Shown: positions 10,314 through 33,600 of the stretch, piece after piece | Position numbering within the stretch: the first letter of the stretch is position 1 | How the letters are laid out: the number at the start of each line of letters is the position of its first letter | Assembly: GCA_050124795.1 (NCBI GenBank) | Contig: JASFEO010000005.1 | Location: 1 to 53,760 of the forward strand | Reading direction: 5' to 3' | DNA: 53,760 nucleotides | DNA from: Candidatus Pacearchaeota archaeon | GTDB lineage: Archaea; Nanobdellota; Nanobdellia; Pacearchaeales; GW2011-AR1 | Position numbers and translations under genes: made by a program | Notes under the pieces: model-generated | The model's database searches: none | Told to the model about the DNA's origin: nothing | Seen by the model: only the letters and a program-made list of their open reading frames with translations

Positions 10314-11657
10314 TTATTGTTTTACTTTTACAACTTCAATTTCTAAATTCTTTTTTAGGTTTTCAATAAATTCTTCTTCCTTGTCTTGTGTGATTATGCA
10401 GCCTGCTGCGCAGTGGTGGCCTCCGACTTGCCCGCCTATTGGCTCTACAACTTTTGAAAGAAGTTTTCTGAGATTTCTCCCGACTTTGCCTGTGATGCGC
10501 GAAGAAACTTTTATTCTGTTTTCATAATATGCCATTGTTGTTATGATTGTCCCTTCTTCATAGACTGATGAGTTTGACAAGATGCTTGCGATTGTTCCAA
10601 TCATTGTTTCTCTTATTTCATGTTTTGCATTTATTATTACAAATCCTTTGCCTTTGATTTTTTGAGTGTTTTCAGCAAATTTTAATCCTGAAATTAAAAG
10701 CTGCTTGTATTTTGCGTGAATTGTTTCTGCTCTTTTTTTAGCATCAGGGATTTCCATGCAAAGTTGTATTGCAAGACTTGACTCCCCGAATCTTGAGCAT
10801 GCATTTACTTTTGCTGAGAGTTCTCTTGCATCTTCTAATTTATTAAAAAGTTTTATTAAAAAAATGTCGCCGATGATTTCATTGTGTTTTGCTTTTGGAT
10901 TTCTTAGCATTACACTTGTGATTAAATTTTGCATTTCTTCATCAGTTAATTCCATTAAACTTTTGAAGCCTTTTACTGAGGGGTCTAAATCTGCTTCTCT
11001 TAGGAGTTCCATTACTCCTTTAGAATCTCCAGTGACTCCGGGAATATAGGGATTGGAAGAAAATTCTAATGCTCTGTTTAAGGGGCGGGTTGAAGGGTAA
11101 ATTAGTAATCCTCTTTTTTTTGTAACTTCTCCGTCAGTCAGGATTCCATGGTTTAGTTTATCAACTTCTTTTTCCAGTAAATCCCCTATCATTCCAAGGA
11201 TTGCTAACTTTGCAGCGGGTTTTATTTCAGGAGTTAATTCTTTACAAAATAAATAAGTTAAACAGGAGGCGCTCATTTTTTCTTTTTCATGAAGTTCAGG
11301 ATTTACAATCAAAACATTTTCAGGGACATTACAGGTTATCTCATGATGGTCGATGATAAAAACATTTTCAAGTTTTGTATCGCTAATATATTGAAAACTT
11401 CCTGAGGCTAAGTCCAGGAATAAAATAATTTTATTTTTTGGCAAATCATAAATAAATTCTTCTTCTAGGTTTTTTAAAATTTTAACTGAGAAAGTTTTGT
11501 CTAGTTTTTTTAATGTCTTAATCATTATTGCAGCTGAAGTTATTCCGTCGGTGTCAAAGTGGCTTACTACAAGAATTTCTTTATTTTGAGTTTTTTCTAA
11601 GAATTTTTTTGAAACTAATTTAATTTGCTCTTCTAAAGTTTCCACTCTTTTTTCCAT
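10314..11657 (-). CDS. Archaeal RecJ-like DHH/DHHA1 phosphoesterase
   Basis: HFDTDG, IDHH, GGH…AAG; near uS15 as in many archaea. Confidence 0.85.
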   Translation of the reverse strand: MEKRVETLEEQIKLVSKKFLEKTQNKEILVVSHFDTDGITSAAIMIKTLKKLDKTFSVKILKNLEEEFIYDLPKNKIILFLDLASGSFQYISDTKLENVFIIDHHEITCNVPENVLIVNPELHEKEKMSASCLTYLFCKELTPEIKPAAKLAILGMIGDLLEKEVDKLNHGILTDGEVTKKRGLLIYPSTRPLNRALEFSSNPYIPGVTGDSKGVMELLREADLDPSVKGFKSLMELTDEEMQNLITSVMLRNPKAKHNEIIGDIFLIKLFNKLEDARELSAKVNACSRFGESSLAIQLCMEIPDAKKRAETIHAKYKQLLISGLKFAENTQKIKGKGFVIINAKHEIRETMIGTIASILSNSSVYEEGTIITTMAYYENRIKVSSRITGKVGRNLRKLLSKVVEPIGGQVGGHHCAAGCIITQDKEEEFIENLKKNLEIEVVKVKQ

Positions 11658-11817
11658 TTTAAAAATTAATTTTAGACGATAAAGAATAAAAAACACTTTT
11701 CTTTTTTAAAGAAGTATGAGTACTTTAGAGTGGGATGCGGGAATTTCACAAAACTTTGTTTTGCGAATCTATTTAAAAAACATAATATTTTTAAAATGAA
11801 CTTTTGTAGCAATTAAA

Positions 11818-19929: not shown

Positions 19930-22233
19930 ATGGTTAAATTAAAAAAGAGGAAAATAAAGAAGTCCGGATTGGTCCGGAAGGGTGTAAAATCTTTGTTTTA
20001 CGGAGGGGTCGGGGCTGTAGCATTATTGAGTTTTGTTAATTTTTTGCCGACGAGATTTTCGCATTGTGTGGAAAAAGAAGTTGCGAGAATAGTTTATAAT
20101 AATATAAAATCTATTGAGAGAATTCCTGAAGAGTTAAAGCCTTATGGAAGCTCAGTTGTGTATCTTGATAGTGAAGGAGGAATTATTGGGGGATATGGGA
20201 GAAAGAAAAAAGGAAAGATTAGTGAGGATGCAAAGAAAGCGCTTTTAGCATGTGAAGATTATTATTTTTTTCCTCATGAAAAAAATTCATTGTTTGAAAA
20301 TCTTTTAGTTCATGAGGGAGTAAGTTTGTATAATATCGCAGGAACAATCTTTGATAGAATGAATGGAAAGAATCGCGGGGGGAGCACAATTTCTATGCAG
20401 GTTGTAAAGAAAATGATTAGGGAAGAAGATGAGGATAGAACTTATGGAAAAAAACTTGAAGAAATGATTCTTGCTTATTTGTATGAAGAAAAGTTTGGAA
20501 AGGAAAAGTTGCTTGAGCATTATATGTCAAATGTTCCGTTGGGAAATAGGGTGTCAGGATTTCAGGCAGCTGCAGAGGCTTATTTTGCAAAACCCCTTGA
20601 TAAATTGAATTTTCAGCAGTTGGTTACACTTGGTTCAATTATTCCCAATCATAATAGATTAAGGGCGTTATATAAAATTAATAATGGGAAGCTTTTATCA
20701 GAACTTTCTTCAGGACTTGAACATGCATTTGTTGATTCAAAGAATAAAATTAATTCTGCATTGCGGCGCTTGCATAAGATAAAAGAAATTAGTGATGGTG
20801 AGTTTCAGAATTGGCTTATTGAGGATGAAGAAGATGCAAAAGGGATTGGATTAAAAGGGCCTGATGTGGGGTTTTATGGAAATGATGCCTGGGCTGCAAG
20901 AGAGATTACTTCTGAAATTTTGTCTCAGAATTATTTTGTTAATGGGAATTTGGTTAGCGGGAGGGAACTTTTGCTTGATACACCCGGGGAGTCCTTAGTT
21001 ATTGAAACTGAGATTGACAGGTTTCTTGTTAATAGCATTAAGAAAAATATAAAGGAATTTTTGGAAAGTGATTATTATGACAGGATTCTTCGCCTTAGAA
21101 ATAGCCGCGTGAATAAATCTTTTGGAAAGCCGTCGTGGGAAGAAGATTTGTTGTATTACAAAAGAAATAAAATAAAACCTCCTTATGAGAATTTTGAAGA
21201 GTTTATAGGTTATCTAAAGGAAAATGTAAATATCGGAGTAATGGCTGTTAATCGGGGAGGGAATATTATTGCAAAGGTCGGGGGTAAGGAATTTTTTGTT
21301 GGAAGCAAAAGCCAGGAACCTGACTTTACAATGAAAAATAAAAAAATTATCGATATTTTAAAGAGCCCTGTGGCAGTAGGTTCAACAATTAAACCAATTA
21401 CTGCTTATTCTGCAATGGCTTTATCAGACAAAGGGGTTATTGAAGAAATTAACTTGAATACTTTATTTGCTGATATTCCCATTGAAAGAATTTATAATAA
21501 AAAACTTCGCTGTTGGGAATGGATGCCTGGAAATTGGTATGATTATGATTTGCTTGGGACCGGGAAAAACAGATATCTGGGTAGGGAATATAGTCTTCTT
21601 GAAGCGCAGGTTCTTTCTGTGAATACTATTTTTGCAAGGCTTTATTCAAACTTTTTGGTAAGAAAGGAAGTTCTTAAGATATTTGATACTGCAGGTCTTG
21701 AGTATAATCATGAGAATGCAAGGTGGTGGCCGTATGGTATTGGTTCTTTTGATGTTGATCCTGCAACTTGGCTTGGGATATATTCTGCTTTTATTGACGG
21801 GAATTATCGAAAACCTTCTATAATAAAAAATATTTTTTTGGATGGCGAAGAAATATCTAATAAATATTTTGATTTTGAAATACAGAGGATTCTTTTTTCT
21901 GATGAGGATGCAAGAAGAGCTGAAATAAAAGCATTGCATGAGGTATGCAACAGAGGTTCAGGGAGAAGGATGGAAAATTATTTTGAAGAGTTTAAAGATA
22001 GGGTCACAGGAAAAACAGGAACTGAGACTGTGCAAAAGACTTCACTTTTTGTGAGTCATTATAATTCTCACCTTGACAGGGAGGCTCATCCTGATGAAAC
22101 AATAGCAATGATTACAATTGTTACAACTAATACAGGAGGGTATAAGCGTGTTGGTTATTCAACTGAAGGGCCTGTGAGAGTCGCAGGAATGATTTATAAT
22201 GATTTGTATCAGGTTAGGCAGATACTTGAATAG
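19930..22233 (+). CDS. Class A penicillin-binding protein (GT51 transglycosylase plus transpeptidase)
   Basis: N-terminal TM; EDYYF…HEG, GGSTISMQVVK, KKLEE, KEKLLEHYMS; STIK, SVN, KTGT. Confidence 0.85.
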   Translation: MVKLKKRKIKKSGLVRKGVKSLFYGGVGAVALLSFVNFLPTRFSHCVEKEVARIVYNNIKSIERIPEELKPYGSSVVYLDSEGGIIGGYGRKKKGKISEDAKKALLACEDYYFFPHEKNSLFENLLVHEGVSLYNIAGTIFDRMNGKNRGGSTISMQVVKKMIREEDEDRTYGKKLEEMILAYLYEEKFGKEKLLEHYMSNVPLGNRVSGFQAAAEAYFAKPLDKLNFQQLVTLGSIIPNHNRLRALYKINNGKLLSELSSGLEHAFVDSKNKINSALRRLHKIKEISDGEFQNWLIEDEEDAKGIGLKGPDVGFYGNDAWAAREITSEILSQNYFVNGNLVSGRELLLDTPGESLVIETEIDRFLVNSIKKNIKEFLESDYYDRILRLRNSRVNKSFGKPSWEEDLLYYKRNKIKPPYENFEEFIGYLKENVNIGVMAVNRGGNIIAKVGGKEFFVGSKSQEPDFTMKNKKIIDILKSPVAVGSTIKPITAYSAMALSDKGVIEEINLNTLFADIPIERIYNKKLRCWEWMPGNWYDYDLLGTGKNRYLGREYSLLEAQVLSVNTIFARLYSNFLVRKEVLKIFDTAGLEYNHENARWWPYGIGSFDVDPATWLGIYSAFIDGNYRKPSIIKNIFLDGEEISNKYFDFEIQRILFSDEDARRAEIKALHEVCNRGSGRRMENYFEEFKDRVTGKTGTETVQKTSLFVSHYNSHLDREAHPDETIAMITIVTTNTGGYKRVGYSTEGPVRVAGMIYNDLYQVRQILE

Positions 22234-24012: not shown

Positions 24013-24837
24013 TTATAATTCTAAGTTGTCCAGAGGACTTTTAATATTTTCTAAATCTGATTTTGCAATGTGAGTATAGATCTGCGTTGTTCTTAAATTT
24101 TTGTGACCAAGGAGTTTCTGAATTTTTCTTAAATCTATTCCCTGCTCCAGAAGATGCGTTGCAAAACTATGCCTTAAAACATGGGGTCTTATTTTTTTTT
24201 GAATTGCTTTTATTGATGCTTTTTCAATTATTTTTTCAATTGTTTTGGGAGAGTATTTTTTTCTTCTGTTTGATTCAAATAAATAATTTTTAGGAGATTC
24301 TTTTAATAAATAAGTTAAGAGTTCTTTTTCAAGATTATTTGGGAAGAGCATGATTCTGTCTTTTGCGCCTTTTCCCTGGCGCACGACGATGATTTTTCTT
24401 TCGATGTCTATGTTATTTGGTTTTAAATTTAAAAGTTCAGAAACTCTTATTCCAGAAGCATACATTAATTTAATCATAATTTTGTGTTTTGGGTTTTCAA
24501 TTGATTGAATTATTTTTATTGTTTGTTCTTTATTCAAGACTTCAGGAATTTTTGATTCTTTTTTATAATGCGGAAGAAGGAATTCTTTTGATTTTCCAAG
24601 AGTATTAAATAAGATTTTAAGTGCAGCATATTTTTGTTTAATGTAACTTGTGCTTTGGTTTTTGTTAATTGAGTCTAGTATATATTTTTTAACTTCATCA
24701 TTTGTTATTTTATTCGAACTTTTTTTTAAGAAGTCATTTAAAATATTCATATAAGCTTTTATTGTTTTATTTGAGAGATTGTTTAGTTTTAGGAAATTCT
24801 CATATTCACTTTTAATCGAAATTATATCCTGATTCAT
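24013..24837 (-). CDS. Tyrosine recombinase, integron-integrase-like but lacking the IntI insertion
   Basis: SGIRVSE, RQGKGAKDR, HVLRHSFATHLLEQG, LLGH…TTQIYTH, C-terminal SPLD. Confidence 0.9.
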   Translation of the reverse strand: MNQDIISIKSEYENFLKLNNLSNKTIKAYMNILNDFLKKSSNKITNDEVKKYILDSINKNQSTSYIKQKYAALKILFNTLGKSKEFLLPHYKKESKIPEVLNKEQTIKIIQSIENPKHKIMIKLMYASGIRVSELLNLKPNNIDIERKIIVVRQGKGAKDRIMLFPNNLEKELLTYLLKESPKNYLFESNRRKKYSPKTIEKIIEKASIKAIQKKIRPHVLRHSFATHLLEQGIDLRKIQKLLGHKNLRTTQIYTHIAKSDLENIKSPLDNLEL

Positions 24838-24947: not shown

Positions 24948-25817
24948 TTATAATCCACTATTTTGAAGTCTCTGTTTCGCAGCAGAAATTTCAGCATAAT
25001 CTCTTGCAGTGGGTTGTGGAAATGGATCAAATCCTAACTCGGCAACAAGCCAGCTTTCTCTTGAATTTGGTCTTCTCCAACTAAATCTTGAAGCAATTTC
25101 TCTATCTTGTTCTATTGACCTTGCAGTTGAAAGACTTTCTTCTCTAATTTCTTGTACAGAATCTAAAACAGACTGTAGAGAATCCGCTTCAAAACCTTTT
25201 TCAGCACAATATTGAGCATTATCACATAATGTATTAACTGCATTTGACCATCCTCTATTACCTTCATTTCTTGCCATTTCCATATAATGACTTACCCCTC
25301 GCTTATATGCTTCAGGTGTTAAATCTTTCTGTAATTCTTGTGGACAAGTTTCCAAACGACCATACAATCCTTCAGGTAATTTCACATATGGATAAGGAAA
25401 TCCTAATCCAACTGTAATTTCCAAACTCTTCATTGTTGCTTCAATATCTTTTTCTGCTTCAACTATTGCTCCAGTTTTTAGATGATCCCTAAATCGAGCA
25501 ATATGTTCTTGCATATGAGAATTAGCTTTATCAACATATGATTGCAACATTGGATTAACCCAACTATGAATTCTTTTGGCTCCAACAACCGAAAGTCTTC
25601 TAATGCTCACTGGTTCATCAAATGGAGTAGAATTCCATCTCATAACTTGATAAACTGTAGGTGGGTTGCTATCATGCAAGAATCCAATATATGTTCTATG
25701 ATTCGTGAATAATGTTGGATGTGTTTCTTTAGGAAATACATTATTGAAATGCCCATTAGGAAGAACTAAGTAAGTATCTCCTTCTTGTCTGACAACATTA
25801 TTAACTGGCTCAATCAT
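24948..25817 (-). CDS. Cassette 1: hypothetical protein
   Basis: 289-aa ORF with own TATA-like box, between attI and the first attC. Confidence 0.75.
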   Translation of the reverse strand: MIEPVNNVVRQEGDTYLVLPNGHFNNVFPKETHPTLFTNHRTYIGFLHDSNPPTVYQVMRWNSTPFDEPVSIRRLSVVGAKRIHSWVNPMLQSYVDKANSHMQEHIARFRDHLKTGAIVEAEKDIEATMKSLEITVGLGFPYPYVKLPEGLYGRLETCPQELQKDLTPEAYKRGVSHYMEMARNEGNRGWSNAVNTLCDNAQYCAEKGFEADSLQSVLDSVQEIREESLSTARSIEQDREIASRFSWRRPNSRESWLVAELGFDPFPQPTARDYAEISAAKQRLQNSGL

Positions 25818-25952
25818 AAATTAGTGAATAAGCTAATTCTTTAAATAGTTTTCTACTTCAAAATAGTAATCTGATTTCTTAATAACGAAAAAAGTGCCCT
25901 GCGTCATACTGTGCCTACGCTTCGCTTCGGCATTTTTTCTTGCAGAAAAAAC

Positions 25953-26064
25953 ACATAACAGCGATTAAGAGACTCCGCCTTGCAGGCTCCGTCCAAATTG
26001 AATTTTTGGAGGTCGCTACGCTCCACTCTCAAAAATCCAACTTCTCTTAATCGCGATGTTAATT
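25953..26064 (+). repeat. attC-like site 1
   Basis: ACATAAC-AGCGATTAAGAGA … TCTCTTAATCGC-GA-T-GTTAATT. Confidence 0.8.
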
Positions 26065-26115
26065 GCAATTTGAGATTTGGGCTAAAAATAGAAAGGGCTT
26101 TGGTTTTGTATATAC

Positions 26116-26892
26116 TCATTGATATTCTTGCTTTGCAATACCTAAAAGAATATTTCTCACCATTTTAAGAGTATTTGGTTGAACTTTATCTAAAGTGTCA
26201 TGAAATCCATTAATTTCCAATTTTTCTAATATTTTTGGAGTCGGTCCTCCTTCTGATTCCCATAACCTTCCTAGGTCAGATGAAACCGTAGAGAAAACAG
26301 TAGAATCAATTCCTGCTTGATTTAAAATAACATTATCTGAAGGAGGAGTTCCCGCATAAAAAAAAGGAATATTCAACTCAGTACATACTTTTTGGATTCT
26401 TCCATTCATGGCTTCTGAATTTTTAACATAGTCTTCCCACGATAAATCATAAGATTTACTACCTAACATAATTGCATTTCCTCTACCAGTTACCTCGAGA
26501 TTATATACTTTTGATAAATTCAAAAAGGGATCATTTACATATCCTTTTGAACCAATTAATCCAATTTCTTCTCCGTCAAAGAATAAAAACCCAAAAGGTA
26601 TTGGAGAACCTTCCTTCACCATTTTCTCTAAGGTTGACAACATCTCGATTACTGCAGAACCATTATCCAAAATTCCATCTCCTTCAGGGGTTTTGTCATA
26701 ATGTGCAGAAAATGCTGAAACTGGTAAATTTTTTGAATTTCCATAAACTACCCCAATATTTAGTAATTCTAAACCATCGTGGGATATTTTTTGTCTTAGA
26801 GGAGTCATTCCCATAGAACTTAAATTATCTAAAATAAATTCCCTTCGTGAATTATAATCACATCCCGAGTAATCTGCAATTCGGTCTAACAT
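26116..26892 (-). CDS. Cassette 2: M28-family zinc peptidase
   Basis: SAHYD, GILDNGSA, DGEEIGLIGS, SDN, HDTLD. Confidence 0.85.
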   Translation of the reverse strand: MLDRIADYSGCDYNSRREFILDNLSSMGMTPLRQKISHDGLELLNIGVVYGNSKNLPVSAFSAHYDKTPEGDGILDNGSAVIEMLSTLEKMVKEGSPIPFGFLFFDGEEIGLIGSKGYVNDPFLNLSKVYNLEVTGRGNAIMLGSKSYDLSWEDYVKNSEAMNGRIQKVCTELNIPFFYAGTPPSDNVILNQAGIDSTVFSTVSSDLGRLWESEGGPTPKILEKLEINGFHDTLDKVQPNTLKMVRNILLGIAKQEYQ

Positions 26893-26943
26893 AATTCTTG
26901 ATAATTATGTAAAAGTTATAAACCTTTCGGATAGTTACTATTA

Positions 26944-27893
26944 TGTGCTCCCACCTGACATATGTCGTAGGCTAAAATAACAAACTAAAATCATTATAAA
27001 CTTCATCAGGAGTTTTATTATTCAAACTCATATGAGGTCTGAAATGATTATATCTCATTCTCCAAAGTTCAGGATCTCCATTGCAAAACTTAAACTCTCT
27101 TTTGAAAGTCTGAAATAATCTTTCGACCTTCCCTTGAGTTGTTGGGCTATGAATTGCCCCGCGAATATGTTTAATCCCTTTTTTTCTCAATTTCACATCA
27201 AATCTGGAATGTTTGCTTTTCAATCCATATGCTGAACCATTATCAGTTAAAATCTCTCTGGGTTTTCCATAAACTTTGATTAAATCATCAATTAATTTAA
27301 TCACAACATCTGTTGTAACCCGATTAACAGGAACAAAAGCTAAACTTTTTCTCGAACAATCATCGACGACAGAAATAACATATTTATTCTTAATCTTTTG
27401 GTCGCTGTGATCAATCTGCCAAAGAGAATTAGGAGTCTTTCTTTGCCAGCGAATATATTTAATTCGCCTCTTTCTTCTTTTAGGATTATTAACTAATTTA
27501 TTTTTATTGAGAATTTTATTAATTGTTGTATGACTTAATGAAACAAGACCCTCAATCTTCTCAGCTCCCCAACCAGTTTCTTTTTTTATCTCCACAATTT
27601 TGCTTTCTAATTCAGAAGTTATCTTTCGATAAATTGTTTTTGGTTTTCTTGATTTATCCCTTAAATTCCAATCTGAATTATTCAGTTTATTTGTCCACCT
27701 TCTTAATGTCCTTATGTTAACTTCATAATTAAACTTAGCAAAGAGTATTTTCCTGCATTGGTTATTAGTGTGCCCCTTGATTCTAAGCTTGAAATATTCT
27801 TTTCTGATTAATTCTTTTTTCATTCAAAACCGAAGAAATCATCTGCGAACTAATTTTCGGTTTTGCCTAGGACATATGTCCCTTGCTTATACA
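26944..27893 (-). mobile_element. IS481-family insertion sequence
   Basis: Both ends read TGT-N10-GACATATGTC(G/C)TAGGC; single transposase; no target duplication seen. Confidence 0.85.
26972..27823 (-). CDS. IS481-family DDE (rve) transposase
   Basis: HTH, WQID, DDCSR, TDNGS, QGKVER, YNHFRPH. Confidence 0.92.
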   Translation of the reverse strand: MKKELIRKEYFKLRIKGHTNNQCRKILFAKFNYEVNIRTLRRWTNKLNNSDWNLRDKSRKPKTIYRKITSELESKIVEIKKETGWGAEKIEGLVSLSHTTINKILNKNKLVNNPKRRKRRIKYIRWQRKTPNSLWQIDHSDQKIKNKYVISVVDDCSRKSLAFVPVNRVTTDVVIKLIDDLIKVYGKPREILTDNGSAYGLKSKHSRFDVKLRKKGIKHIRGAIHSPTTQGKVERLFQTFKREFKFCNGDPELWRMRYNHFRPHMSLNNKTPDEVYNDFSLLF

Positions 27894-28401
27894 TCTTTAT
27901 CATGGTTTGAAATCAATGAAGATAAAGAAAATTGATTTTCAAGATTTGGTAAATGAACTCGCTGGTAATAATAAATTAAAGAAAGTGTTTTATTATACTG
28001 CAAGAATGGATAAGAATTTTGATGAGAAAAGATACGCCAAGCATCAAAAATTTCTTAAGAAACTTTCATCTATTCCGAACTTTAAAATTTCATATTGCAC
28101 TTTCAAGAAAATCATCGAAAAAAATGGTAAAGTCAGTTATGCTGTTAAAGGCGATGATGTTCAGCTAGCAAATGATATGATTGTTGGAGCCTATGAAAAC
28201 CTTTATGATATTGCAATATTGGTTTCAGGAGATGAAGACTTCAAGCCAGTTGTGCGTACAGTAAGAAAACGAGGAAAGGTAGTTGAAAATATTTTCTTTA
28301 GAGGAGGATCTTCATCAAGATTAAGGAAAACTTGTAACTCATCAAAGAACATTCGTTTTATTTTAGAAAAAATAAATAGGCGTCCTGGCATTACAGAGTA
28401 A
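27894..28401 (+). pseudogene. 5'-truncated NYN (LabA/DUF88, PIN-like) nuclease gene
   Basis: YYT, KGDDV, AILVSGDEDF, GKVVE; the N-terminal DxxN motif is replaced by the IS end. Confidence 0.8.
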
Positions 28402-28625
28402 CCCAGGACAGTTATTAGTATTATCACTAATCTAAACTTTAAAAATTCTTCGGTTGCCTAATTTTCGCCTTTCGTGGCGACTTACTTTTTAGAAAAAAGT
28501 AAGCAAAAAGCGCGCGCTTCCCACCCTAAGAATGGAGATTTAAATTTTCTTAACGCAGAAGAAAAAACTCCTTCGCCTTCGGCTCGGTGCCGTCTTGCAG
28601 ACTTTCGGCATAAATGCCTCACACG

Positions 28626-28749
28626 ACTTAACAGGGGATAAAGAGTAATTTCTTGCAGAAATTCCCCAAATTCTTCTTCCAGCTCGAGCCTGTGAGGTTC
28701 CGCTCCAGTCTCGAGGTCAGAAGAACTTTCCTTAAGCCCAATGTTAAGA
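28626..28749 (+). repeat. attC-like site 2
   Basis: ACTTAAC-AGGGGATAAAG … CTTAAGCCCAAT-GTTAAGA. Confidence 0.7.
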
Positions 28750-28919
28750 AAAATATTTCCACTTTCTCCGTCGCTGTTTTAACTTTTATCGTCGGAGATA
28801 AATCTCAAATTCTGATTTTGATATCTCCGCTTAACGCTCCAATGCGAAATTAAAATTGTCGCATAACATCGCTGATTAAACGAAATTTTTGAAAAATAAA
28901 AATAATAAAAACGAAAGAT

Positions 28920-29162
28920 TTATTCTAATTCTTTTTCTAATTCACTTAGACCTTTGTTCTCACCATATTTGATTTTGTTATAGAATCCTAATCCCATTGA
29001 CGCCAAAAATGCACCGCCAATCAAATATGGGTGGTCGAAGCTTTTGTCGCCGACAACATCAACAACTCCTGCAACCATTGAACTTGATGCCACGCCAAAA
29101 GCAAATCCATCATAGAATTCTCTAAGTGAATATTCTCTTAGTTTTTGAATTTTGTCATTCAT
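28920..29162 (-). CDS. Cassette: small two-TM membrane protein
   Basis: 80-aa ORF with BRE/TATA and GGAG upstream. Confidence 0.7.
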   Translation of the reverse strand: MNDKIQKLREYSLREFYDGFAFGVASSSMVAGVVDVVGDKSFDHPYLIGGAFLASMGLGFYNKIKYGENKGLSELEKELE

Positions 29163-29357
29163 TTTAATTCTCCTTACTAAGAGAATAAATTAATAGTTTA
29201 TAAATCTTTCGTTAATTTACTACTTGAAAGTTAATAACTTATTTTTCAAAAACTACGATATCAAAGAATTTTCGAAAGTGGAAATACTCTTCGGAATTTT
29301 TTTGCTTCGCAAAAAACCACTTGCAGTTATTCCTCGTCCTCGCCTTTGGCTCGGATT

Positions 29358-29481
29358 TCTTAACAGCGATTAAAACTCCGCTCCGTTGCACTCCGCTACG
29401 CCCTTCGGTTTTGTGGGATGCCTCAAAACCTACGGGGAAATAAATCCTTCGGATTTACTTCTCTTAATCGCGATGTTATAC
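29358..29481 (+). repeat. attC-like site 3
   Basis: TCTTAAC-AGCGATTAA … TTAATCGC-GA-T-GTTATAC. Confidence 0.8.
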
Positions 29482-29558
29482 GAAATTTCAAACCCTGTCT
29501 TGATGTAGAAAAGATTAAATAGGATCTGTTTTAATTAACATATTAGAGGATATAAAAT

Positions 29559-29957
29559 ATGAAAAAAGTAGAAAAAATTAACAATAATACTTTAGCCGTT
29601 ATAATTGGATTAGTGATTAGTATCGGCTGGATTTTTATGGGGCTTGATATTGGCTTCCAATTTGTGGCTCCAGATCAAATAAGTTACATACTAACATTGG
29701 CTGGGCAACGCCATACTATTATGACCCTATTAGCTTTAGTTCTAATTCCAATATGTGCCAGAGAAAATCGATGGGGTTTATTATCTGCAATGATTCTAGG
29801 AATAGTCACATTAACTTTATCGTTAGCCCACATCATCTATATGCTAATTGCTACTCCTTCTGGATTTGAATCACAAATATTTGGGCCCACGATTTGGTCT
29901 ATAATTCAAATACCAATAATATTTTTTGGTTATAAAGCTCAACAAGCATTGAGATAG
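29559..29957 (+). CDS. Cassette: four-TM membrane protein
   Basis: 132-aa hydrophobic ORF, GAGGA upstream. Confidence 0.75.
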   Translation: MKKVEKINNNTLAVIIGLVISIGWIFMGLDIGFQFVAPDQISYILTLAGQRHTIMTLLALVLIPICARENRWGLLSAMILGIVTLTLSLAHIIYMLIATPSGFESQIFGPTIWSIIQIPIIFFGYKAQQALR

Positions 29958-30083
29958 TTAAGCCGAATTTACTTAGAGGTAATCATACATCTGATTTTTG
30001 AAAAATTTAAGATATTAGTAAAAACCGCAGGGTTTGAAACTCAAGGGGGCGCTGCGCTTTCGTCGCTATTGCTCCTCACCCTC

Positions 30084-30183
30084 GTATAACAAGGGATAAA
30101 AGGAAAATTGTTCGGCTCGCAATTTTCCCAAATTTTTCTTCCACTTCGTTCCAGAAAAACTTCCCTTAAGCCCGATGTTAAAT
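30084..30183 (+). repeat. attC-like site 4
   Basis: GTATAAC-AAGGGATAAAAGG … CCCTTAAGCCCGAT-GTTAAAT. Confidence 0.75.
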
Positions 30184-30340
30184 CTAATTCTAAAACCTGC
30201 CTACCAAGACTAAAATAAAAATTATAATGTTGTTATCTTCGTTAAAATCATAAAGAAAAAACTTACAAAATTGCTACGCAGCTTTGCCTAACAAAATTTT
30301 AACGAAATTGTTGAAAAATAAAAATTATAGAACGAAAGAT

Positions 30341-30673
30341 TTACTTTTTTGTTTCTTGATTTATTCTAGATAGAATTGTTTTGTATAATTCTTGTGCTTT
30401 AGCTTTTTCCATATTGTCTGGAAGAATGTCGGCTGTTCCGTCTCTGTCTTTGTCGTAAAATGAAAGTTCAATTCCTTCTGGAGTTTTTAGTCTTAATCTA
30501 TAATCAGATGTCCATCCATGTCCCTTTCCCCAAGATGTTTGTTCGTAAACAACCCGATTTCCATCTATGTTTCCTGCATAGATTAAGCCTTTATTACTTT
30601 CATCTTTACCACAGCCTGACAAAGCTAAAGCTCCTGCCAAAACAATTCCAGTTAATGTTCTTTTGATTGTCAT
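30341..30673 (-). CDS. Cassette: putative lipoprotein
   Basis: Signal peptide with lipobox LSGC; DKDRDGTAD acidic loop. Confidence 0.7.
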   Translation of the reverse strand: MTIKRTLTGIVLAGALALSGCGKDESNKGLIYAGNIDGNRVVYEQTSWGKGHGWTSDYRLRLKTPEGIELSFYDKDRDGTADILPDNMEKAKAQELYKTILSRINQETKK

Positions 30674-30842
30674 ACAATAAAGAATAAATCAATACTTTAT
30701 AAATCTTTCGTTTCTTTTACTACTTTGAAGTTAATAATCTATTTTTCAACAACTACGATAACAACGAATTTTCGGCGAGCCCTGAACTTCTCCCTTCGGT
30801 CGACCACGTTGCACTCTCACTTCACTTCGTTTCGTTTGGGGA

Positions 30843-30979
30843 GTTTAACAGCGATTAAGAGGAAAATCCCTTGCAGGAATTTTCCCAAATCCTCGCCATC
30901 TCTGAAAAAATTTCCAGCTCTGTTTCACGAGGGAAATTTTTTCGAGGGCTTCGGACTTCTCTTAAGCCCGATGTTAAAC
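30843..30979 (+). repeat. attC-like site 5
   Basis: GTTTAAC-AGCGATTAAGAG … CTCTTAAGCCCGAT-GTTAAAC. Confidence 0.8.
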
Positions 30980-31026
30980 TCAATAAATTTGAAGTCCTAA
31001 AAAATAGAAAGGGGGCAGTTGCATAA

Positions 31027-31317
31027 CTACTTCTTGATTATTTTCTCCAGATTAATCTTATATTTCTCAAAAGCATCTTTCTTAAATGTGTAATGCACAT
31101 GCATTCCTTTTTTTTCAGATTCAAGCATTCCAGCATCAACTAACAACTTTAAATGTTTAGACACAGCAGGTTGAGATATATTAAGATTTCTCACAATAGC
31201 AGATACACACAAACTATGTTTTGAAAGCAATTCTAGAATTTTTAATCTATTTGAATCTCCTAAAAGTTTTGCAATCTTTGCAGTTTCTTCTATCAATTTG
31301 CTTCCCATAAATGGCAT
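31027..31317 (-). CDS. Cassette: ArsR/SmtB-family regulator
   Basis: LGDSNRLKIL, LCVSAI, SQPAVSKHL, G…HY. Confidence 0.9.
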   Translation of the reverse strand: MPFMGSKLIEETAKIAKLLGDSNRLKILELLSKHSLCVSAIVRNLNISQPAVSKHLKLLVDAGMLESEKKGMHVHYTFKKDAFEKYKINLEKIIKK

Positions 31318-31337
31318 ATAACTTAATGACTATTTAT

Positions 31338-31955
31338 TTATTTGCTTTTTTCATATTTAATTGCTTTTACGGGACAAGAATCCGAACATTCAAAACATAA
31401 AAGACAATTCTTTTTATCAATATTCAAGTTTTCATCAATAGCAACTCCAGGACAAATTTTCTCACATTTTTTACAATTAATACATTTATTTGTTTTTTTG
31501 ATCTGCATTCTTGAAAACCTTGCTGTTAATGAAAAAAGCATTCCCCATGGACACAAATATCTATGCCAAGTTCTAGCGTCAAATATAATTGTAGCAAATA
31601 ATCCTAATCCAATTATTATCAAAGGAAGAGGAAAGTTTTTACCCTGTTTCATCAACATTATCTTAAAAACAAAGCCAATTATGAAAAGAATGAATAAAGA
31701 GTATCTTAATAGCTCATTCTTGAAAAATGCCTTAATTTCTTTATTTTTGAATCCTAATTTCCTCTTTATTTTGTCAATAGGTGTTATAATTGTATTTATT
31801 GGGCATACCCACTCACAATAAAATCTTCCAAAGAAAAAAGACCCTATCAGAAACAGTAATACTATCCCCATCCAGATTTTATTTTTTTCTAAGATTATCA
31901 AAGTAAAAAAAATTAACAAAAACAAAAATTGGATTCCTTTTCTGATTTTTTGCAT
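31338..31955 (-). CDS. Cassette: membrane 4Fe-4S binding protein (NapH/MauN/YccM-like)
   Basis: GRFYCEWVCP, YLCPWG, two CxxCxxCxxxCP motifs; ATG at 31955 or 31967 is more plausible than 32075. Confidence 0.85.
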   Translation of the reverse strand: MQKIRKGIQFLFLLIFFTLIILEKNKIWMGIVLLFLIGSFFFGRFYCEWVCPINTIITPIDKIKRKLGFKNKEIKAFFKNELLRYSLFILFIIGFVFKIMLMKQGKNFPLPLIIIGLGLFATIIFDARTWHRYLCPWGMLFSLTARFSRMQIKKTNKCINCKKCEKICPGVAIDENLNIDKKNCLLCFECSDSCPVKAIKYEKSK

Positions 31956-31956
31956 T

Positions 31957-32094
31957 TTATTTTTCATTGCATAAACAGTTTCCTTTGAAGCAGTCTTTTC
32001 CTTCTTTGGTTCTTTTGATAACAATTTCAGAACCATTATCTTCAATTGTTCCAATTTCTTTTCCTTTGCATACAATCTTACATTCTCCGCACAT
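31957..32094 (-). CDS. Cassette: 45-aa Cys-rich peptide not in the ORF track
   Basis: MCGECKIVCKGKEIGTIEDNGSEIVIKRTKEGKDCFKGNCLCNEK; GGAGGT upstream; stop 1 nt before the next ATG. Confidence 0.7.
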   Translation of the reverse strand: MCGECKIVCKGKEIGTIEDNGSEIVIKRTKEGKDCFKGNCLCNEK

Positions 32095-32308
32095 TTTTAA
32101 TACCTCCTAATATTTAGTTATATAATCATATAATTATATTGTTATATATTTAAACCTTTCGATTCGTTATGCAACTGCCCCTCAATCTTGTTTTTGATGT
32201 ATCGCTGTCGCTTATTGGATAAAACGGACTTCAAATTTACTTTGAATTTTTCCTTCGCTTCGCTACGGAACGTTGCACTAATCCTCGGTCTCCGTTTCAC
32301 TCCGACGG

Positions 32309-32429
32309 ATATAACAGGAATTTAACGGAAAAATGCTCGGCTCGCATTTTTCCCAAATTTGATTTTCCAGCTCTGTTACGCTTCGCTTCACGAGGGAAAA
32401 TCAAACTTCGTTAAATTCCGATGTTATAA
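32309..32429 (+). repeat. attC-like site 6 (array end)
   Basis: ATATAAC-AGGAATTTAACG … CGTTAAATTCC-GA-T-GTTATAA. Confidence 0.8.
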
Positions 32430-32463
32430 AATATTTTAAAAACTTCTTTTGCTTTGTTAGTTA

Positions 32464-33600
32464 ATGAAAAAGGGTGAAGGAAATTCCAGAAATGTTTGGC
32501 TATTGGGAGGCTCAAGTTTTTTTAATGATGTTGGAAGTGAAATGATTATGCCGATTTTACCGTTTTATATTTTGGCTCTTGGGGGCGGAGGTATTGCTCT
32601 TGGTCTTGTTTCAGGTTTGCGTGAGGGGTTGTCAAGTTTGTTTAAAATTTTTGGAGGATATGTTTCTGACAGAACAGGAAAAAGAAAAGTTTTTGTTTTC
32701 TTTGGTTATCTTTTTTCAGTTGTTTTTAGATTTTTTCTCGGGCTTGTAAATTCCTGGCAATATCTTGTTACTTTTATTTCCCTGGAGAGATTTGGAAAAT
32801 TCAGGGATTCTCCTCGTGATGCCATGATTTCTGAAGAGAAAAAAACTTCAGGAAAAAATTTTGGAATATTGCAGATGATGGATACTCTTGGCGCTATTTT
32901 GGGAATTATTTTAGTATTTATATTTTTTTGGAAATTTAATTTTAGTTTTAAGACAATAATTTTCTTGGCTGCAGGGATATCTGTGTTTTCATTGTTGTTT
33001 TTAATTTTTGTAAAAGATTCAAAAGTTAAGAAGTCAAAAAAAAGTTTATTGAAGGGGATAAGTGGTTTGAATAAAAATTTAAAATATTTTATTTTTGTTT
33101 CATCTGTTTTTTCTTTTGCGAATTTCGGGCTTTATATGTTTTTGTTATTGGTTGCAAAGGAATTTACAGGAAGTTATGTTTATTCAATTTTGTTTTATCT
33201 TATTTTTAATGTGGTTTATGCATCTATGCTGGTTCCTTTTGGAAAATTGTCTGACTGGGTCGGAAGAAAAAAAATTCTTGTTCTTGGGTATTTATCATTT
33301 TTTGGAGTTAGTCTTGGGTTTATTTATTTTCAGACTTTTTTTCATCTGGTTGTTTTATTTATTCTTTATGGATTTGTTTATGCAATAAAATATCCCTGTC
33401 AAAAGGCGCTTGTGTCTGATTTGTCAGGGGAGATGAAGGGAACTGCATTTGGATTATTTAATATGTCAATTGGTTTGGCAGGAATTCCAGGCGGGATAAT
33501 CGCAGGAATTTTATGGAATGCAAGTCATGATTTAATGTTTGGTTATTTATCTGTAATTTCAGTTGCTGCACTATTTTTATTAATTTTTGTTCGGGAATAA
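32464..33600 (+). CDS. MFS transporter
   Basis: About 12 TM; GYVSDRTGKRK and GKLSDWVGRKK motif A. Confidence 0.9.
   Translation: MKKGEGNSRNVWLLGGSSFFNDVGSEMIMPILPFYILALGGGGIALGLVSGLREGLSSLFKIFGGYVSDRTGKRKVFVFFGYLFSVVFRFFLGLVNSWQYLVTFISLERFGKFRDSPRDAMISEEKKTSGKNFGILQMMDTLGAILGIILVFIFFWKFNFSFKTIIFLAAGISVFSLLFLIFVKDSKVKKSKKSLLKGISGLNKNLKYFIFVSSVFSFANFGLYMFLLLVAKEFTGSYVYSILFYLIFNVVYASMLVPFGKLSDWVGRKKILVLGYLSFFGVSLGFIYFQTFFHLVVLFILYGFVYAIKYPCQKALVSDLSGEMKGTAFGLFNMSIGLAGIPGGIIAGILWNASHDLMFGYLSVISVAALFLLIFVRE

What the first reader, a model, noticed from the sequence alone, without database searches (positions are those of the whole stretch)
28805..30775. Two unrelated genes sit in the same non-coding cassette chassis, with compensatory changes
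Seen: ORFs 28920-29162 and 30341-30673 share both flanks: AACGAAATT(T/G)TTGAAAAATAAAAAT…AACGAAAGAT+stop on one side, and AGAATAAAT…TTTATAAATCTTTCGTT…TTTACTACTT…TATTTTTCAA(A/C)AACTACGATA on the other. The T>G change on the left is matched by A>C on the right. TTTGATATC/GATATCAAA likewise becomes GTTGTTATC/GATAACAAC. Similarity stops exactly at the stop codon. Inference: pairing across about 400 bp is selected, and ORFs are loaded precisely into a reusable promoter-containing scaffold. This bears on the open question of cassette genesis.
Basis: partly seen in the sequence, partly recalled or inferred. Interest (0 to 1): 0.85.

Follow-up and report, generated by a model that had tools for sequence, protein, structure and literature searches.

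The report
Shared folded scaffold around archaeal integron genes
Two unrelated small genes in an archaeal gene-cassette array sit in the same conserved promoter, terminator and hairpin scaffold, which recurs around many other unrelated genes in related archaea and so gives a concrete lead on how such cassettes are built and moved.

Summary
ORFs 28920-29162 and 30341-30673 (both on the - strand) are unalignable, yet share about 94 nt (87%) upstream and 47 nt (89%) downstream, with matched changes in the inverted repeats.

Both lie in an integron-like array: six attC-like sites at 25950-32433, in a small archaeal genome, beside a XerA-like recombinase that lacks the IntI-specific insert.

The shared flanks are a reusable scaffold. 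It has an archaeal BRE/TATA promoter, a T-rich terminator, nested stems S0-S5 and a side hairpin. I extracted 20 such elements from about 19 genomes; their ORFs (49-300 aa) fall into 16 unrelated clusters. There is also one empty copy in the same genome. A 24-nt frame of the scaffold occurs in 47 stretches of public genomes, nearly all titled Woese-, Pace- or Nanoarchaeota.

The stems hold across sequence variants: 92.9% of cells pair, against 39-56% in slid controls. Start-to-end closing stems also occur in 13 of 15 cassettes of this genome, including forward-oriented ones.

The best reading is a structured, self-expressing cassette backbone whose ORF sits in the apical loop. The pairing probably acts in single-stranded DNA during recombination; that step is inferred. 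How ORFs are loaded is unknown.

The parts
24013..24837 (-). XerA-like tyrosine recombinase, divergent from the array; lacks the IntI-specific insert
   Evidence: Pfam Phage_integrase E=7e-42. NCBIfam recomb_XerA_Arch 234.5 bits against a cut-off of 220. The integron-integrase model TIGR02249 gives 179.8 bits against a cut-off of 265, matched in two stretches.
25950..26068 (+). attC-like site (first of six in the window)
   Evidence: Covariance model R1, 103.1 bits. R''-L'' and L'-R' boxes found.
28623..28753 (+). attC-like site upstream of cassette A
   Evidence: R1, 115.1 bits; alignments.
28744..29475 (+). Cassette 1 (unit A), from TT of the upstream GTT to G of the next GTT
   Evidence: Boundaries read from the R' boxes. 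Folded as ssDNA, the bottom strand gives -120.9 kcal/mol against shuffles at -70.9+-6.8, z=-7.3.
28748..28766 (.). Outer closing stem S0, left arm; pairs with 29274-29292
   Evidence: 19 nt, 89% complementary (I7). The same stem is in G044 and G144.
28804..28825 (.). Stems S1 and S2, left arms (CTCAAATTC; TTTGATATC); pair with 29257-29274
   Evidence: helices 1 and 2.
28826..28885 (.). Side hairpin, type I. On the - strand it contains TTTAATCAGCGATGTTATGCGA, which resembles an attC L'-R' half.
   Evidence: The closing stem covaries with type II (helix 5, column 875/943: UA 7, AU 6). Model R1 does not call it an attC.
28881..28899 (.). Stems S3+S4, left arm; pair with 29239-29257
   Evidence: 19 nt, 89% complementary (I6).
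28889..28919 (-). T-rich stretch after the stop codon; inferred archaeal terminator
   Evidence: The sequence shows TTTTTATTATTTTTATTTTT on the - strand. Its function is inferred.
28910..28923 (.). Stem S5, left arm. It is an inverted copy of the BRE/TATA and overlaps the stop codon. Pairs with 29200-29213.
   Evidence: 14/14 complementary (I13).
28920..29162 (-). ORF A, 80 aa, no family
   Evidence: No Pfam hit and no NCBIfam hit.
29197..29213 (-). BRE/TATA-type promoter AACGAAAGATTTATAAA of ORF A; also the right arm of S5
   Evidence: Exact match. Genome-wide consensus. Its function is inferred from the known archaeal promoter architecture.
29239..29292 (.). Right arms of S4, S3, S2, S1 and S0 of unit A
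29355..29485 (+). attC-like site of cassette 1
   Evidence: R1, 96.8 bits.
29476..30177 (+). Cassette 2, forward ORF 29559-29957. It has its own closing stem, TTTCAAACCCTG 29486-29497 / CAGGGTTTGAAA 30028-30039.
   Evidence: Start/end duplex -15.2 kcal/mol against a non-cognate mean of -9.6.
30081..30187 (+). attC-like site of cassette 2
   Evidence: R1, 87.6 bits.
30178..30973 (+). Cassette 3 (unit B)
   Evidence: Boundaries read from the R' boxes.
30229..30237 (.). S2, left arm of unit B (GTTGTTATC); pairs with 30757-30765
   Evidence: I23.
30238..30305 (.). Side hairpin, type II (closing stem TTCGTTAAAAT / ATTTTAACGAA)
30299..30320 (.). S3+S4, left arm of unit B; pairs with 30740-30761
   Evidence: 22 nt, 86% complementary (I3).
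30331..30343 (.). S5, left arm of unit B, overlapping the stop codon; pairs with 30700-30712
   Evidence: 13/13 complementary (I20).
30341..30673 (-). ORF B, 110 aa, lipoprotein-like N-terminus (…LALSGC…)
   Evidence: No family hit. Only distant relatives: best 42% identity over 77 aa in 300 genomes of the family.
30696..30712 (-). BRE/TATA-type promoter of ORF B. The ATG lies about 25 nt downstream, so a leaderless mRNA is inferred.
   Evidence: Exact match; spacing read.
30840..30983 (+). attC-like site of cassette 3
   Evidence: R1, 106 bits.
32306..32433 (+). Last attC-like site in the window. It closes a cassette with two reverse genes (ArsR-type regulator 31027-31317; Fer4 membrane protein 31338-32075).
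   Evidence: R1, 55.5 bits; Pfam.

Best explanation
Units A and B are two members of a widespread family of reverse-oriented, self-expressing gene cassettes in attC arrays (integron-like, or CALIN) of DPANN archaea of the Woese-/Pace-/Nanoarchaeota kind.

Each cassette carries a conserved non-coding backbone with these parts:
- An archaeal BRE/TATA promoter that runs up to the ATG.
- A stop codon embedded in an inverted copy of that BRE/TATA.
- A T-rich terminator.
- A set of nested inverted repeats (S0-S5) plus a side hairpin.

Together these enclose the ORF in the apical loop of one long hairpin, whose base lies next to the attC sites. The backbone is conserved and shared horizontally. The ORF is the exchangeable part.

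Exchange between cassettes most simply happens by recombination inside the conserved arms; the chimeric arms show that this occurs.

The nested pairing most likely acts at the DNA level. When the bottom strand, the same strand on which the attC sites fold, is single-stranded, the cassette folds into a rod. This brings its two flanking attC sites together, or, in the excised circle, prolongs the attC stem. That would favour excision or integration by the neighbouring tyrosine recombinase.

**Shown:** the anatomy, the family, the ORF turnover, and the maintained complementarity.
**Inferred:** promoter and terminator function, the folding strand, the role in recombination, and how a new ORF first enters the backbone.
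For: **Context**
- Six attC-like sites in the window and 22 in the genome, by a covariance model built from five of them.
- Their bottom strand folds better than the top strand in 22 of 22.
- A tyrosine recombinase lies divergent from the array.
- The genome is archaeal (L24e present).

**Family**
- 82 of 101 relatives and 86 of 401 genomes of the order match parts of the cassettes.
- 20 elements with payloads were extracted. Their proteins fall into 16 clusters.
- 0 of 2 window payloads and 1 of 10 other payloads have a Pfam family.
- A 24-nt frame occurs in 47 stretches of public genomes, with titles Woesearchaeota, Pacearchaeota or Nanoarchaeota in nearly all.
- Contigs from groundwater and hydrothermal-vent runs join both flanks of B at 30343|30679 and 30343|30692, and those of A at 28894/5|29243/4 (table 5).

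**Pairing**
- 92.9% of cells pair against 39-56% in slid controls. Nine pairs change on both sides (1 of 500 shuffles reach this). The covariation score is reached by 0 of 500 shuffles.
- In 35 of 46 sites, GAAATT plus the complement of the hexamer that precedes the right frame lies within 1.8 kb. Controls give 0, 2 and 1.
- The stem next to the payload has at least 7 sequence variants.
- Outer stems occur in 4 unrelated sequence classes, each self-complementary.
- The MFE fold of the 730-nt bottom strand recovers the nested stems, z=-7.3.

**Generality**
- The cassette start pairs with the cassette end better than the non-cognate mean in 13 of 15 cassettes of this genome, and better than every non-cognate partner in 8 of 15.
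- The same holds in 3 of 4 non-scaffold cassettes of other genomes.

**Strand**
- The inner stems are more stable on the gene (bottom) strand in 11 of 15 elements with DNA parameters and 14 of 15 with RNA parameters.

**Exchange**
- 5 of 14 elements are chimeras of left and right arm classes.

**Literature (passages read)**
- Archaeal attC arrays, mostly without IntI, are on record (PMC9668308).
- Excision frequency can fall with cassette length when bottom strands are on the lagging-strand template (PMC5371416).
Against: - No experiment or read evidence here shows folding, excision or transcription.
- The strand preference rests largely on one conserved G.T position (S3, 12 of 14 rows). It is absent for the outer stems: bottom lower in 6, top lower in 5, equal in 4 of 15.
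- Over all stems, G.T on the bottom strand outnumbers A.C only 44 to 22, and 15 of the 44 are that one position.
- 5 of 14 elements persist with a broken outer stem. 2 of 15 own cassettes and 1 of 4 foreign ones show no closing stem.
- The sequences are related, so few independent compensatory events may underlie the counts. The structure tested was derived from these same sequences.
- The neighbouring recombinase fails the integron-integrase model and lacks its defining insert, so which enzyme acts on these sites is open.
- The attC model found a flanking site in only 9 of 17 foreign loci at E<=0.01.
- The top/bottom assignment rests on the orientation of the recombinase gene and on the model's strand calls, not on mapped extrahelical bases.
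Confidence: 0.6

Rival explanations
1. The inverted repeats are a by-product and are not selected. An ancestral palindromic backbone is kept symmetrical by arm-to-arm correction (template switching within quasi-palindromes, or gene conversion). The matched variants are a few old haplotypes spread by horizontal transfer.
For: - Most covariation reduces to a few haplotypes: two states of S2, and two large classes of S4 (TTCAAC 17, TTCAGC 21).
- Chimeras with broken outer stems persist in 5 of 14 elements.
- There is no strand asymmetry in the outer stems.
Against: - Outer stems of 4 unrelated sequences, and closing stems in unrelated forward cassettes (13 of 15 own, 3 of 4 foreign), each pair with their own partner. 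This needs either many independent palindromes or selection.
- Wobble intermediates link the paired states: T-A, T.G, C-G at column 77/864.
- Arms lie 240-1600 nt apart, which is far for intrastrand template switching.
Confidence: 0.2
2. The symmetry serves gene expression, not DNA folding. The inverted BRE/TATA at the stop codon is an antisense promoter, and each arm carries T-runs. The ORF would then sit between convergent promoters and terminators (sense/antisense control or insulation from array transcription), or the stems would act in a read-through RNA.
For: - The 3' arm of S5 reads AACGAAAGATTTATTCT on the + strand, close to the promoter consensus.
- CTTCGG motifs, which would be UUCG loops in a + strand RNA, are frequent.
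- Antisense promoters in cassettes can silence neighbouring cassettes in Vibrio (PMC11014356, passages read).
Against: - This explains S5 only. It does not explain S0-S4, the side hairpin, or the closing stems of forward cassettes.
- An mRNA started about 25 nt after the TATA box lacks the whole 5' arm (read).
- The stems are weaker on the + strand in 11 of 15 elements (DNA parameters) and 14 of 15 (RNA parameters).
- No Rfam family matches.
Confidence: 0.12
3. The scaffold is a non-autonomous transposon (MITE-like) with terminal inverted repeats that carries passenger genes and happened to land in cassettes.
For: Terminal inverted repeats with variable cargo. An rve-type IS lies in the array at 26972-27823.
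Against: - In the own genome the frame occurs only in cassettes A and B and in the C3 cassette.
- The repeats are nested over more than 100 nt, with conserved mismatches and a side hairpin, rather than two simple ends.
- The outermost arms abut the attC sites and vary together with them.
- Target duplications were not looked for.
Confidence: 0.04
4. Simple duplication: the two ORFs are diverged paralogues.
For: Within the scaffold family some payloads are distant homologues: B and G003 share 35% over 80 aa, G144 and G174 share 35% over 57 aa.
Against: - A and B give no blastp hit at E<=10, and differ in length and type (80 aa against a 110-aa lipoprotein-like protein), while their flanks are 87-89% identical.
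- There are 16 clusters among 20 payloads.
Confidence: 0.02

Closest known systems
Integron gene cassettes / CALIN arrays in Archaea (Ghaly et al. 2022, PMC9668308; passages read)
   Same: Tandem short ORFs are separated by imperfect-palindrome attC sites whose bottom strand folds. [quoted passage not shown]
   Different: - Here the ORFs are on the opposite strand, with their own promoter and terminator.
- The conserved sequence extends far beyond attC, through both flanks up to the ATG and the stop.
- Nested stems span the whole cassette.
- The adjacent recombinase is XerA-like, without the IntI insert.
- 'inverted repeat' occurs 0 times in that paper, and 'promoter' occurs only in a figure legend on the assay set-up and in the reference list.
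Species-specific attC sites of chromosomal integrons, e.g. Vibrio VCRs joined to unrelated ORFs (recalled from the integron literature; PMC5371416 passages read)
   Same: A highly conserved non-coding recombination module is attached to many unrelated ORFs. This is the classical argument that cassettes are assembled in the host.
   Different: The conserved module there is the attC alone, on one side of the ORF. Here both sides, including the expression signals, are conserved, and they pair with each other.
Cassettes with internal promoters: toxin-antitoxin cassettes, cmlA, and gene-less promoter cassettes (PMC8876359 and PMC11014356; passages read)
   Same: Cassette-borne promoters make expression independent of the array promoter. 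Antisense promoters exist.
   Different: Those promoters belong to individual genes or to gene-less cassettes. In the papers searched, no common promoter/terminator/hairpin frame shared by unrelated ORFs is described.
Single-strand origins of rolling-circle plasmids and filamentous phages (recalled; not tested)
   Same: A long imperfect palindrome folds only in single-stranded DNA and rebuilds a double-stranded promoter within the stem.
   Different: Those elements prime complementary-strand synthesis on replicons. Here no replication protein or nick site is known. This is a resemblance of form only.

Membership tests
Integron gene cassette | Bounded by attC sites: R''-L'' ... L'-R' imperfect inverted repeats with unequal spacers | tested here: met
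   Alignments (TTAACAGCGATTAAA ... CTTAAGCCCGATGTTAAA). Model R1 finds 6 sites in the window and 22 in the genome.
Integron gene cassette | attC folds preferentially as the bottom strand | tested here: met
   Predicted ssDNA energy is lower for the bottom strand in 22 of 22 sites. This is a prediction only.
Integron gene cassette | Recombined by an integron integrase (excision or insertion at G|TT) | not testable with these tools
   The runs laid were contigs only. No excision joint at attC boundaries was seen in the source run X1.
Complete integron | Adjacent IntI with the IntI-specific additional domain | tested here: not met
   TIGR02249 gives 179.8 bits against a cut-off of 265, matched in two stretches; the first ends at profile position 179 of 315. 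The best model is recomb_XerA_Arch, 234.5 bits against 220.
CALIN (cluster of attC sites lacking IntI) | Two or more attC sites in series, with no IntI | tested here: met
   Only two XerA-like recombinases are in the genome.
attC site (for the side hairpin inside the scaffold) | Scores as attC with the genome's own attC model | tested here: not met
   No R1 match at 28826-28885 or 30238-30305 on either strand at E<=1. Only the L'-R'-like half is similar by eye.
MITE / TIR transposon | Copies dispersed at unrelated sites, with target-site duplications | tested here: not met
   In the own genome the frame ATCGTAGTT has 3 matches. Two are units A and B and the third is an unrelated site (C29). 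The 3' frame also occurs in the C3 cassette. Target duplications were not examined.
Known structured RNA (Rfam 15) | Match to a curated covariance model | tested here: not met
   0 matches at E<=1 in 25800-32600, both strands.
Archaeal BRE/TATA promoter | BRE plus TATA box about 25 nt upstream of the start of transcription | tested here: inconclusive
   The motif AACGAAAGATTTATAAA lies 25-40 nt before the ATG in the elements and is the genome-wide consensus. No transcript start was mapped.

The most novel reading that the evidence does not exclude
The scaffold is a single-stranded-DNA device that serves as a platform for making and moving cassettes. The whole bottom strand folds into a rod, with attC at one end and the ORF in the terminal loop. 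The loop is the place where new coding sequence is captured or swapped.

The innermost stem rebuilds a double-stranded BRE/TATA next to an open loop. On an excised single-stranded circle, the host RNA polymerase could then prime complementary-strand synthesis, much like a plasmid single-strand origin.

The recombinase would be the XerA-like enzyme encoded beside each array. That would make this an integron-like system that runs without a canonical IntI.
Probability: 0.15. Interest if true: 0.92.

Novelty: new variant of a known kind. Interest (0 to 1): 0.8.

Why it matters
How integron cassettes are created, meaning how an ORF becomes joined to a recombination site, has no accepted mechanism (recalled from the integron literature).

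This cassette lineage conserves not just attC but a complete expression and folding frame, which is reused around at least 16 unrelated ORF families. It has sharp boundaries at the start and stop codons, an empty version, and recombinant arms.

That turns the question into something testable. One can catalogue junctions across thousands of metagenomic copies, look for the native loci of payload genes, and test in recombination assays whether the cassette-spanning stems change excision or capture.

It also suggests two further points:
- Archaeal attC arrays may be served by XerA-like recombinases.
- Cassette-wide secondary structure, not only the attC hairpin, may matter for integron dynamics.

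Tried and rejected
- Searches failed because my coordinates for the C3 recombinase were one base off. I listed the ORFs and repeated the calls correctly.
-, a first attC alignment, included two mis-specified foreign stretches. It was replaced.
-, a first script for the outer stems, anchored S1 wrongly in several rows and is discarded. One search replaces it.

**Analyses that did not help**
- The strand test on the outer closing stems gave no asymmetry.
- The count of G.T against A.C over all stems (44 against 22) is inflated by one conserved position and includes misaligned rows (G003, G292, G150, C3e). I treat it as weak.
- The attC model is narrow (5 sequences from one genome). It found no attC at E<=0.01 in 8 of 17 foreign loci. 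This does not show absence there.
- I looked for further empty copies among all loci held, using a regular expression. Only the own-genome C3 copy turned up. The search was not exhaustive.
- I looked for ORF B relatives in 300 genomes of the family. 7 other genomes have distant matches: 3 in a full scaffold, 2 with promoter-part or weak-arm similarity, and 2 with essentially none (one 15-nt match in one of them). This did not reveal a native source locus.

**Read data that I do not use as evidence**
- In runs X2, X3 and X24 the bins over the three ORFs had essentially no contig cover, while the non-coding bins did (table 2).
- Run X24 is labelled RNA. Its contigs cover backbone parts; for example, record 19 covers 29361-29477 with 1 other letter. 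This does not show transcription.
- No inversion or excision joint was seen in the source run X1.

**Not used or not checked**
- I did not use structure prediction, complex prediction, the protein atlas or the large protein searches. The payloads are ORFans, and the question concerns the DNA.
- Supplementary files of the papers were closed. The data S3/S4 tables of PMC9668308 might list these very arrays.
- Record titles are as given. One is titled 'bacterium' and two 'uncultured Methanosarcinales archaeon'; I did not check them.

**Literature searches**
Not-in-print statements rest on searches and on passages read only.
Full report
**1. The observation**

The region was read and its ORFs listed. 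Two - strand ORFs, 28920-29162 (80 aa, unit A) and 30341-30673 (110 aa, unit B), have flanks that align while the coding parts do not.

Against the whole 1.06-Mb assembly (38 contigs, about 32% G+C), the upstream flanks match over 94 nt at 87% (E=5e-26). The downstream flanks match over 47 nt at 89% (E=1e-9). The two proteins give no blastp hit even at E<=10.

- T 28888 with A 29250 in A, against G 30310 with C 30750 in B.
- TTTGATATC / GATATCAAA in A, against GTTGTTATC / GATAACAAC in B.

**2. Context**

The + strand carries a series of imperfect palindromes with the anatomy of integron attC sites: TTAACAGCGATTAAA ... CTTAAGCCCGATGTTAAA, with unequal spacers.

A covariance model built from five of them finds six in the window, at 25950, 28623, 29355, 30081, 30840 and 32306. 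It finds 22 in the genome at E<=1; most of the others lie on short contigs.

Units A and B are therefore cassettes 28744-29475 and 30178-30973 of an array. Their genes are on the strand opposite to the array. The cassette between them (29476-30177) has a forward ORF.

A tyrosine recombinase lies divergent from the array at 24013-24837.
- It passes NCBIfam's archaeal XerA model (234.5 bits against 220).
- It fails the integron-integrase model (179.8 bits against 265), which it matches in two separate stretches; the first ends at profile position 179 of 315.
- A second XerA-like gene, 42% identical, lies on contig C3, again divergent from an attC array.
- These are the only two such genes in the assembly.

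The genome is archaeal. Ribosomal protein L24e is present, and the control search rings only in the four control archaea. An archaeal-type RecJ is the best model for 10314-11696.

By the published definition, which requires an IntI with its additional domain (PMC9668308, passages read), this is a CALIN-type array. Such arrays are on record for Nanoarchaeota-type genomes in that paper.

**3. Anatomy of the scaffold, read on the gene (-) strand**

From 5' to 3':
- Outer stem S0.
- S1: CGAAAATTC.
- S2: TTTGATATC or GTTGTTATC.
- S3: GTAGTT, with a constant T.T mismatch and a G.T pair.
- S4: (T/G)TTGAAAAATA.
- An upstream promoter element (…AAGTAGTAA…).
- S5: AACGAAAGATTTA, a BRE/TATA-type motif followed by TAAA.
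- 25-40 nt later, the ATG. Two classes of 5' end recur. One has the ATG about 25 nt after the TATA box (leaderless, as in B). The other has TAAGGAGAATTAAAATG (as in A).
- After the ORF: the stop codon inside TAAATCTTTCGTT (the other arm of S5), T-runs, then the partners of S4 and S3.
- A side hairpin of two types.
- The partners of S2, S1 and S0.

The promoter part is the general consensus of this genome. The 15-mer has 72 matches with <=2 mismatches, and there are examples before other genes. The rest of the frame occurs only in A, B and one further cassette. Promoter and terminator functions are inferred from the known architecture of archaeal promoters and oligo-T terminators, not measured.

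**4. A family with exchangeable ORFs**

Genome searches:
- Cassette A matched parts of 82 of 101 related genomes.
- Cassette B matched 86 of 401 genomes of the order at E<=1e-8, of which 82 of 355 are in the own family.

From the loci returned I extracted 22 candidate elements. 19 of them plus the empty copy went into the arm alignments, and 20 with payloads went into the protein comparison.

Payload ORFs range from 49 to 300 aa and fall into 16 blastp clusters at E<=1e-3. The only multi-member clusters are a lipoprotein-like group (B, G003, G150, G385a) and G144/G174. One of 10 payloads scanned has a Pfam family (DUF7736). A and B have none.

Boundaries:
- Conservation runs up to the ATG in both 5' classes, or stops just after the TATA box in others.
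- On the 3' side it begins at the last codon plus stop: AGAATAA, AAGTAA or GATTAA, followed by ATCTTTCG.

An empty version exists in the same genome. It is a 373-bp cassette repeated in tandem at the start of contig C3. It has the same frame and side hairpin, a stem GTCGTC/GACGAC, a 30-nt loop, and no promoter or ORF. In the probable source run its contig has depth 310.8, against about 43 for the window.

One element (G044) keeps the outer frame but has a different promoter and stem, AGTGGATTTTT / AAAAATTCACT.

Wider distribution:
- A 24-nt degenerate frame of the right arm has exact matches in 47 stretches of the species-representative genome collection. Nearly all are titled Woesearchaeota, Pacearchaeota, Nanoarchaeota or 'archaeon'. 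One is titled 'bacterium' and two 'Methanosarcinales'; these were not checked.
- In contigs of a groundwater run and a hydrothermal-vent run, both flanks of B are joined at 30343|30692 (two contigs) and 30343|30679 (side 59). Those of A are joined at 28895|29243 and 28894|29244, with unknown letters between (table 5). The same flanks therefore occur there without these ORFs.

**5. Is the pairing maintained?**

On an alignment of 14 whole elements I imposed the six stems (54 pairs; the structure string was generated).
- 92.9% of 747 cells form standard pairs, against 39-56% when partners are slid by 1-3 columns.
- 9 pairs change on both sides. The shuffle mean is 5.0, and 1 of 500 shuffles reach 9.
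- The covariation score is 0.127 against 0.063, reached by 0 of 500 shuffles.

Examples:
- S2 has two states, UA/GC at column 61/958 and AU/UA at 65/954.
- The side-hairpin stem flips UA/AU (7 against 6).
- S4 position 2 shows UA, UG, CG and GC.

In the wider set:
- For 35 of 46 sites with at least 300 nt of left sequence, GAAATT followed by the complement of the hexamer that precedes the right frame lies within 1.8 kb.
- Three mock partners gave 0, 2 and 1.
- The stem takes at least seven forms: GTTGAA…, GCTGAA…, TTTGAA…, GTCAGAGAAT, TTTGTGAGCA, AGTGAATTTTT and GTCGTC.
- The four cases that carry the partner of another class are all one-step G.T neighbours on the gene strand.

The outer stem S0 has four unrelated sequences, each complementary to its own partner, in 9 of 14 elements. 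The other 5 combine a left arm of one class with a right arm of another and do not pair. They show that recombination between cassettes happens inside the conserved arms.

Caveats: the sequences are related, the structure was derived from them, and the number of independent events may be small.

**6. The stems continue a general property of these cassettes**

For 15 cassettes of the own genome bounded by two model hits, I compared the first 70 nt with the last 110 nt before the next attC.
- The predicted duplex is lower than the mean of non-cognate pairs in 13 of 15, and lower than every non-cognate pair in 8 of 15.
- This includes the forward cassette 2 (TTTCAAACCCTG 29486-29497 with CAGGGTTTGAAA 30028-30039).
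- In other genomes, 3 of 4 cassettes without the scaffold show the same.

So the start of a cassette pairs with the stretch ahead of its own attC. In an excised circle this would prolong the attC stem. In the array it would draw the two flanking attC sites together.

Folded as single-stranded DNA:
- The 730-nt bottom strand of cassette A gives -120.9 kcal/mol against -70.9+-6.8 for 20 shuffles (z=-7.3). The minimum-energy structure contains the attC hairpin and the nested long-range stems around the ORF.
- The empty cassette gives z=-4.3 (bottom strand) and z=-3.4 (top strand).

**7. Which strand, and what for**

Strand evidence:
- The attC sites are predicted to fold better as the bottom strand in 22 of 22, as expected for integron sites.
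- The inner scaffold stems are more stable on that same strand, which is the sense strand of the ORF, in 11 of 15 elements with DNA parameters and 14 of 15 with RNA parameters.
- The outer stems show no preference.
- A transcript from the BRE/TATA promoter would start downstream of the whole 5' arm, so the mRNA cannot form these stems (read).
- No Rfam family matches.

I therefore favour folding of the single-stranded bottom strand. [quoted passage not shown] A cassette-closing rod would shorten that distance. This step is inference.

The inverted BRE/TATA at the stop codon may in addition be an antisense promoter. In a folded single strand it may rebuild a double-stranded promoter. Neither was tested.

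**8. How ORFs get in**

What is shown is the pattern: an identical frame, different ORFs, sharp boundaries, an empty copy, and chimeric arms.

Exchange among existing members needs nothing more than homologous recombination in the arms. The first joining of a new ORF to the frame is unexplained. I found no native locus for ORF B among 300 genomes of the family.

**9. Comparison and novelty**

Already known:
- Archaeal attC arrays (PMC9668308).
- Cassette-borne promoters and antisense promoters (PMC8876359, PMC11014356; passages read).

My three full-text searches and the passages read turned up no description of three things:
- A common promoter/terminator/hairpin frame shared by unrelated cassette ORFs.
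- Cassette-spanning closing stems.
- XerA-like recombinases paired with attC arrays.

I file the finding as a new variant of a known kind, with high interest. It gives a concrete, countable object for the open question of how cassettes are made.

Noticed in passing
window 24013-24837 (-) and L051 (own genome C3) 922-1704 (+): The only two XerA-like tyrosine recombinases of the assembly (42% identical) each lie divergent from an attC array, and both lack the IntI-specific insert. Either may be the working recombinase of these arrays.
   Followed up: partly
L051 (own genome C3) 112-857: A 373-bp gene-less cassette, the empty scaffold, is repeated in tandem at the contig start. In contigs of the probable source run its depth is 310.8 against about 43 for the window, so there are several more copies than were assembled.
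   Followed up: partly
window 28500-31000, both strands: CCGAAGG and GCGAAGC motifs (CTTCGG / GCTTCGC on the + strand) recur in hairpin loops of the attC sites and spacers. On the bottom strand they would be GAA-loop DNA mini-hairpins (the property is recalled, not tested).
   Followed up: no
window 30356-30376: ORF B contains, out of frame and about 25 nt before its real stop, a second copy of the junction motif AGAATAAATC. It looks like the trace of an older 3' junction or a small duplication.
   Followed up: no
window 26972-27823 (-) and 27883-28401 (+): An rve-family IS transposase and a NYN-domain gene lie inside the array, between the attC sites at 25950 and 28623. That cassette is one of the two own-genome cassettes without a closing stem.
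   Followed up: no
window 30984-32305: The last cassette carries two reverse-oriented genes, an ArsR-type regulator and a membrane protein with 4Fe-4S motifs. It has a start/end closing stem (-16.2 against -9.5 kcal/mol).
   Followed up: no
window 29361-29477: A contig from a salt-lake run labelled RNA covers this attC site with 1 difference in 117 letters. Contigs from groundwater and hydrothermal-vent runs carry close copies of the backbone. The non-coding parts are thus spread over distant habitats.
   Followed up: partly
window 19930-22233 (+): A 767-aa ORF in this archaeal genome matches the glycosyltransferase part of bacterial PBP1A-type penicillin-binding proteins (E=1e-41, far below the family cut-off).
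   Followed up: no
L087, L088, L091: The scaffold frame also occurs on records titled 'bacterium' (one) and 'uncultured Methanosarcinales archaeon' (two). These may be mislabelled bins or transfers.
   Followed up: no
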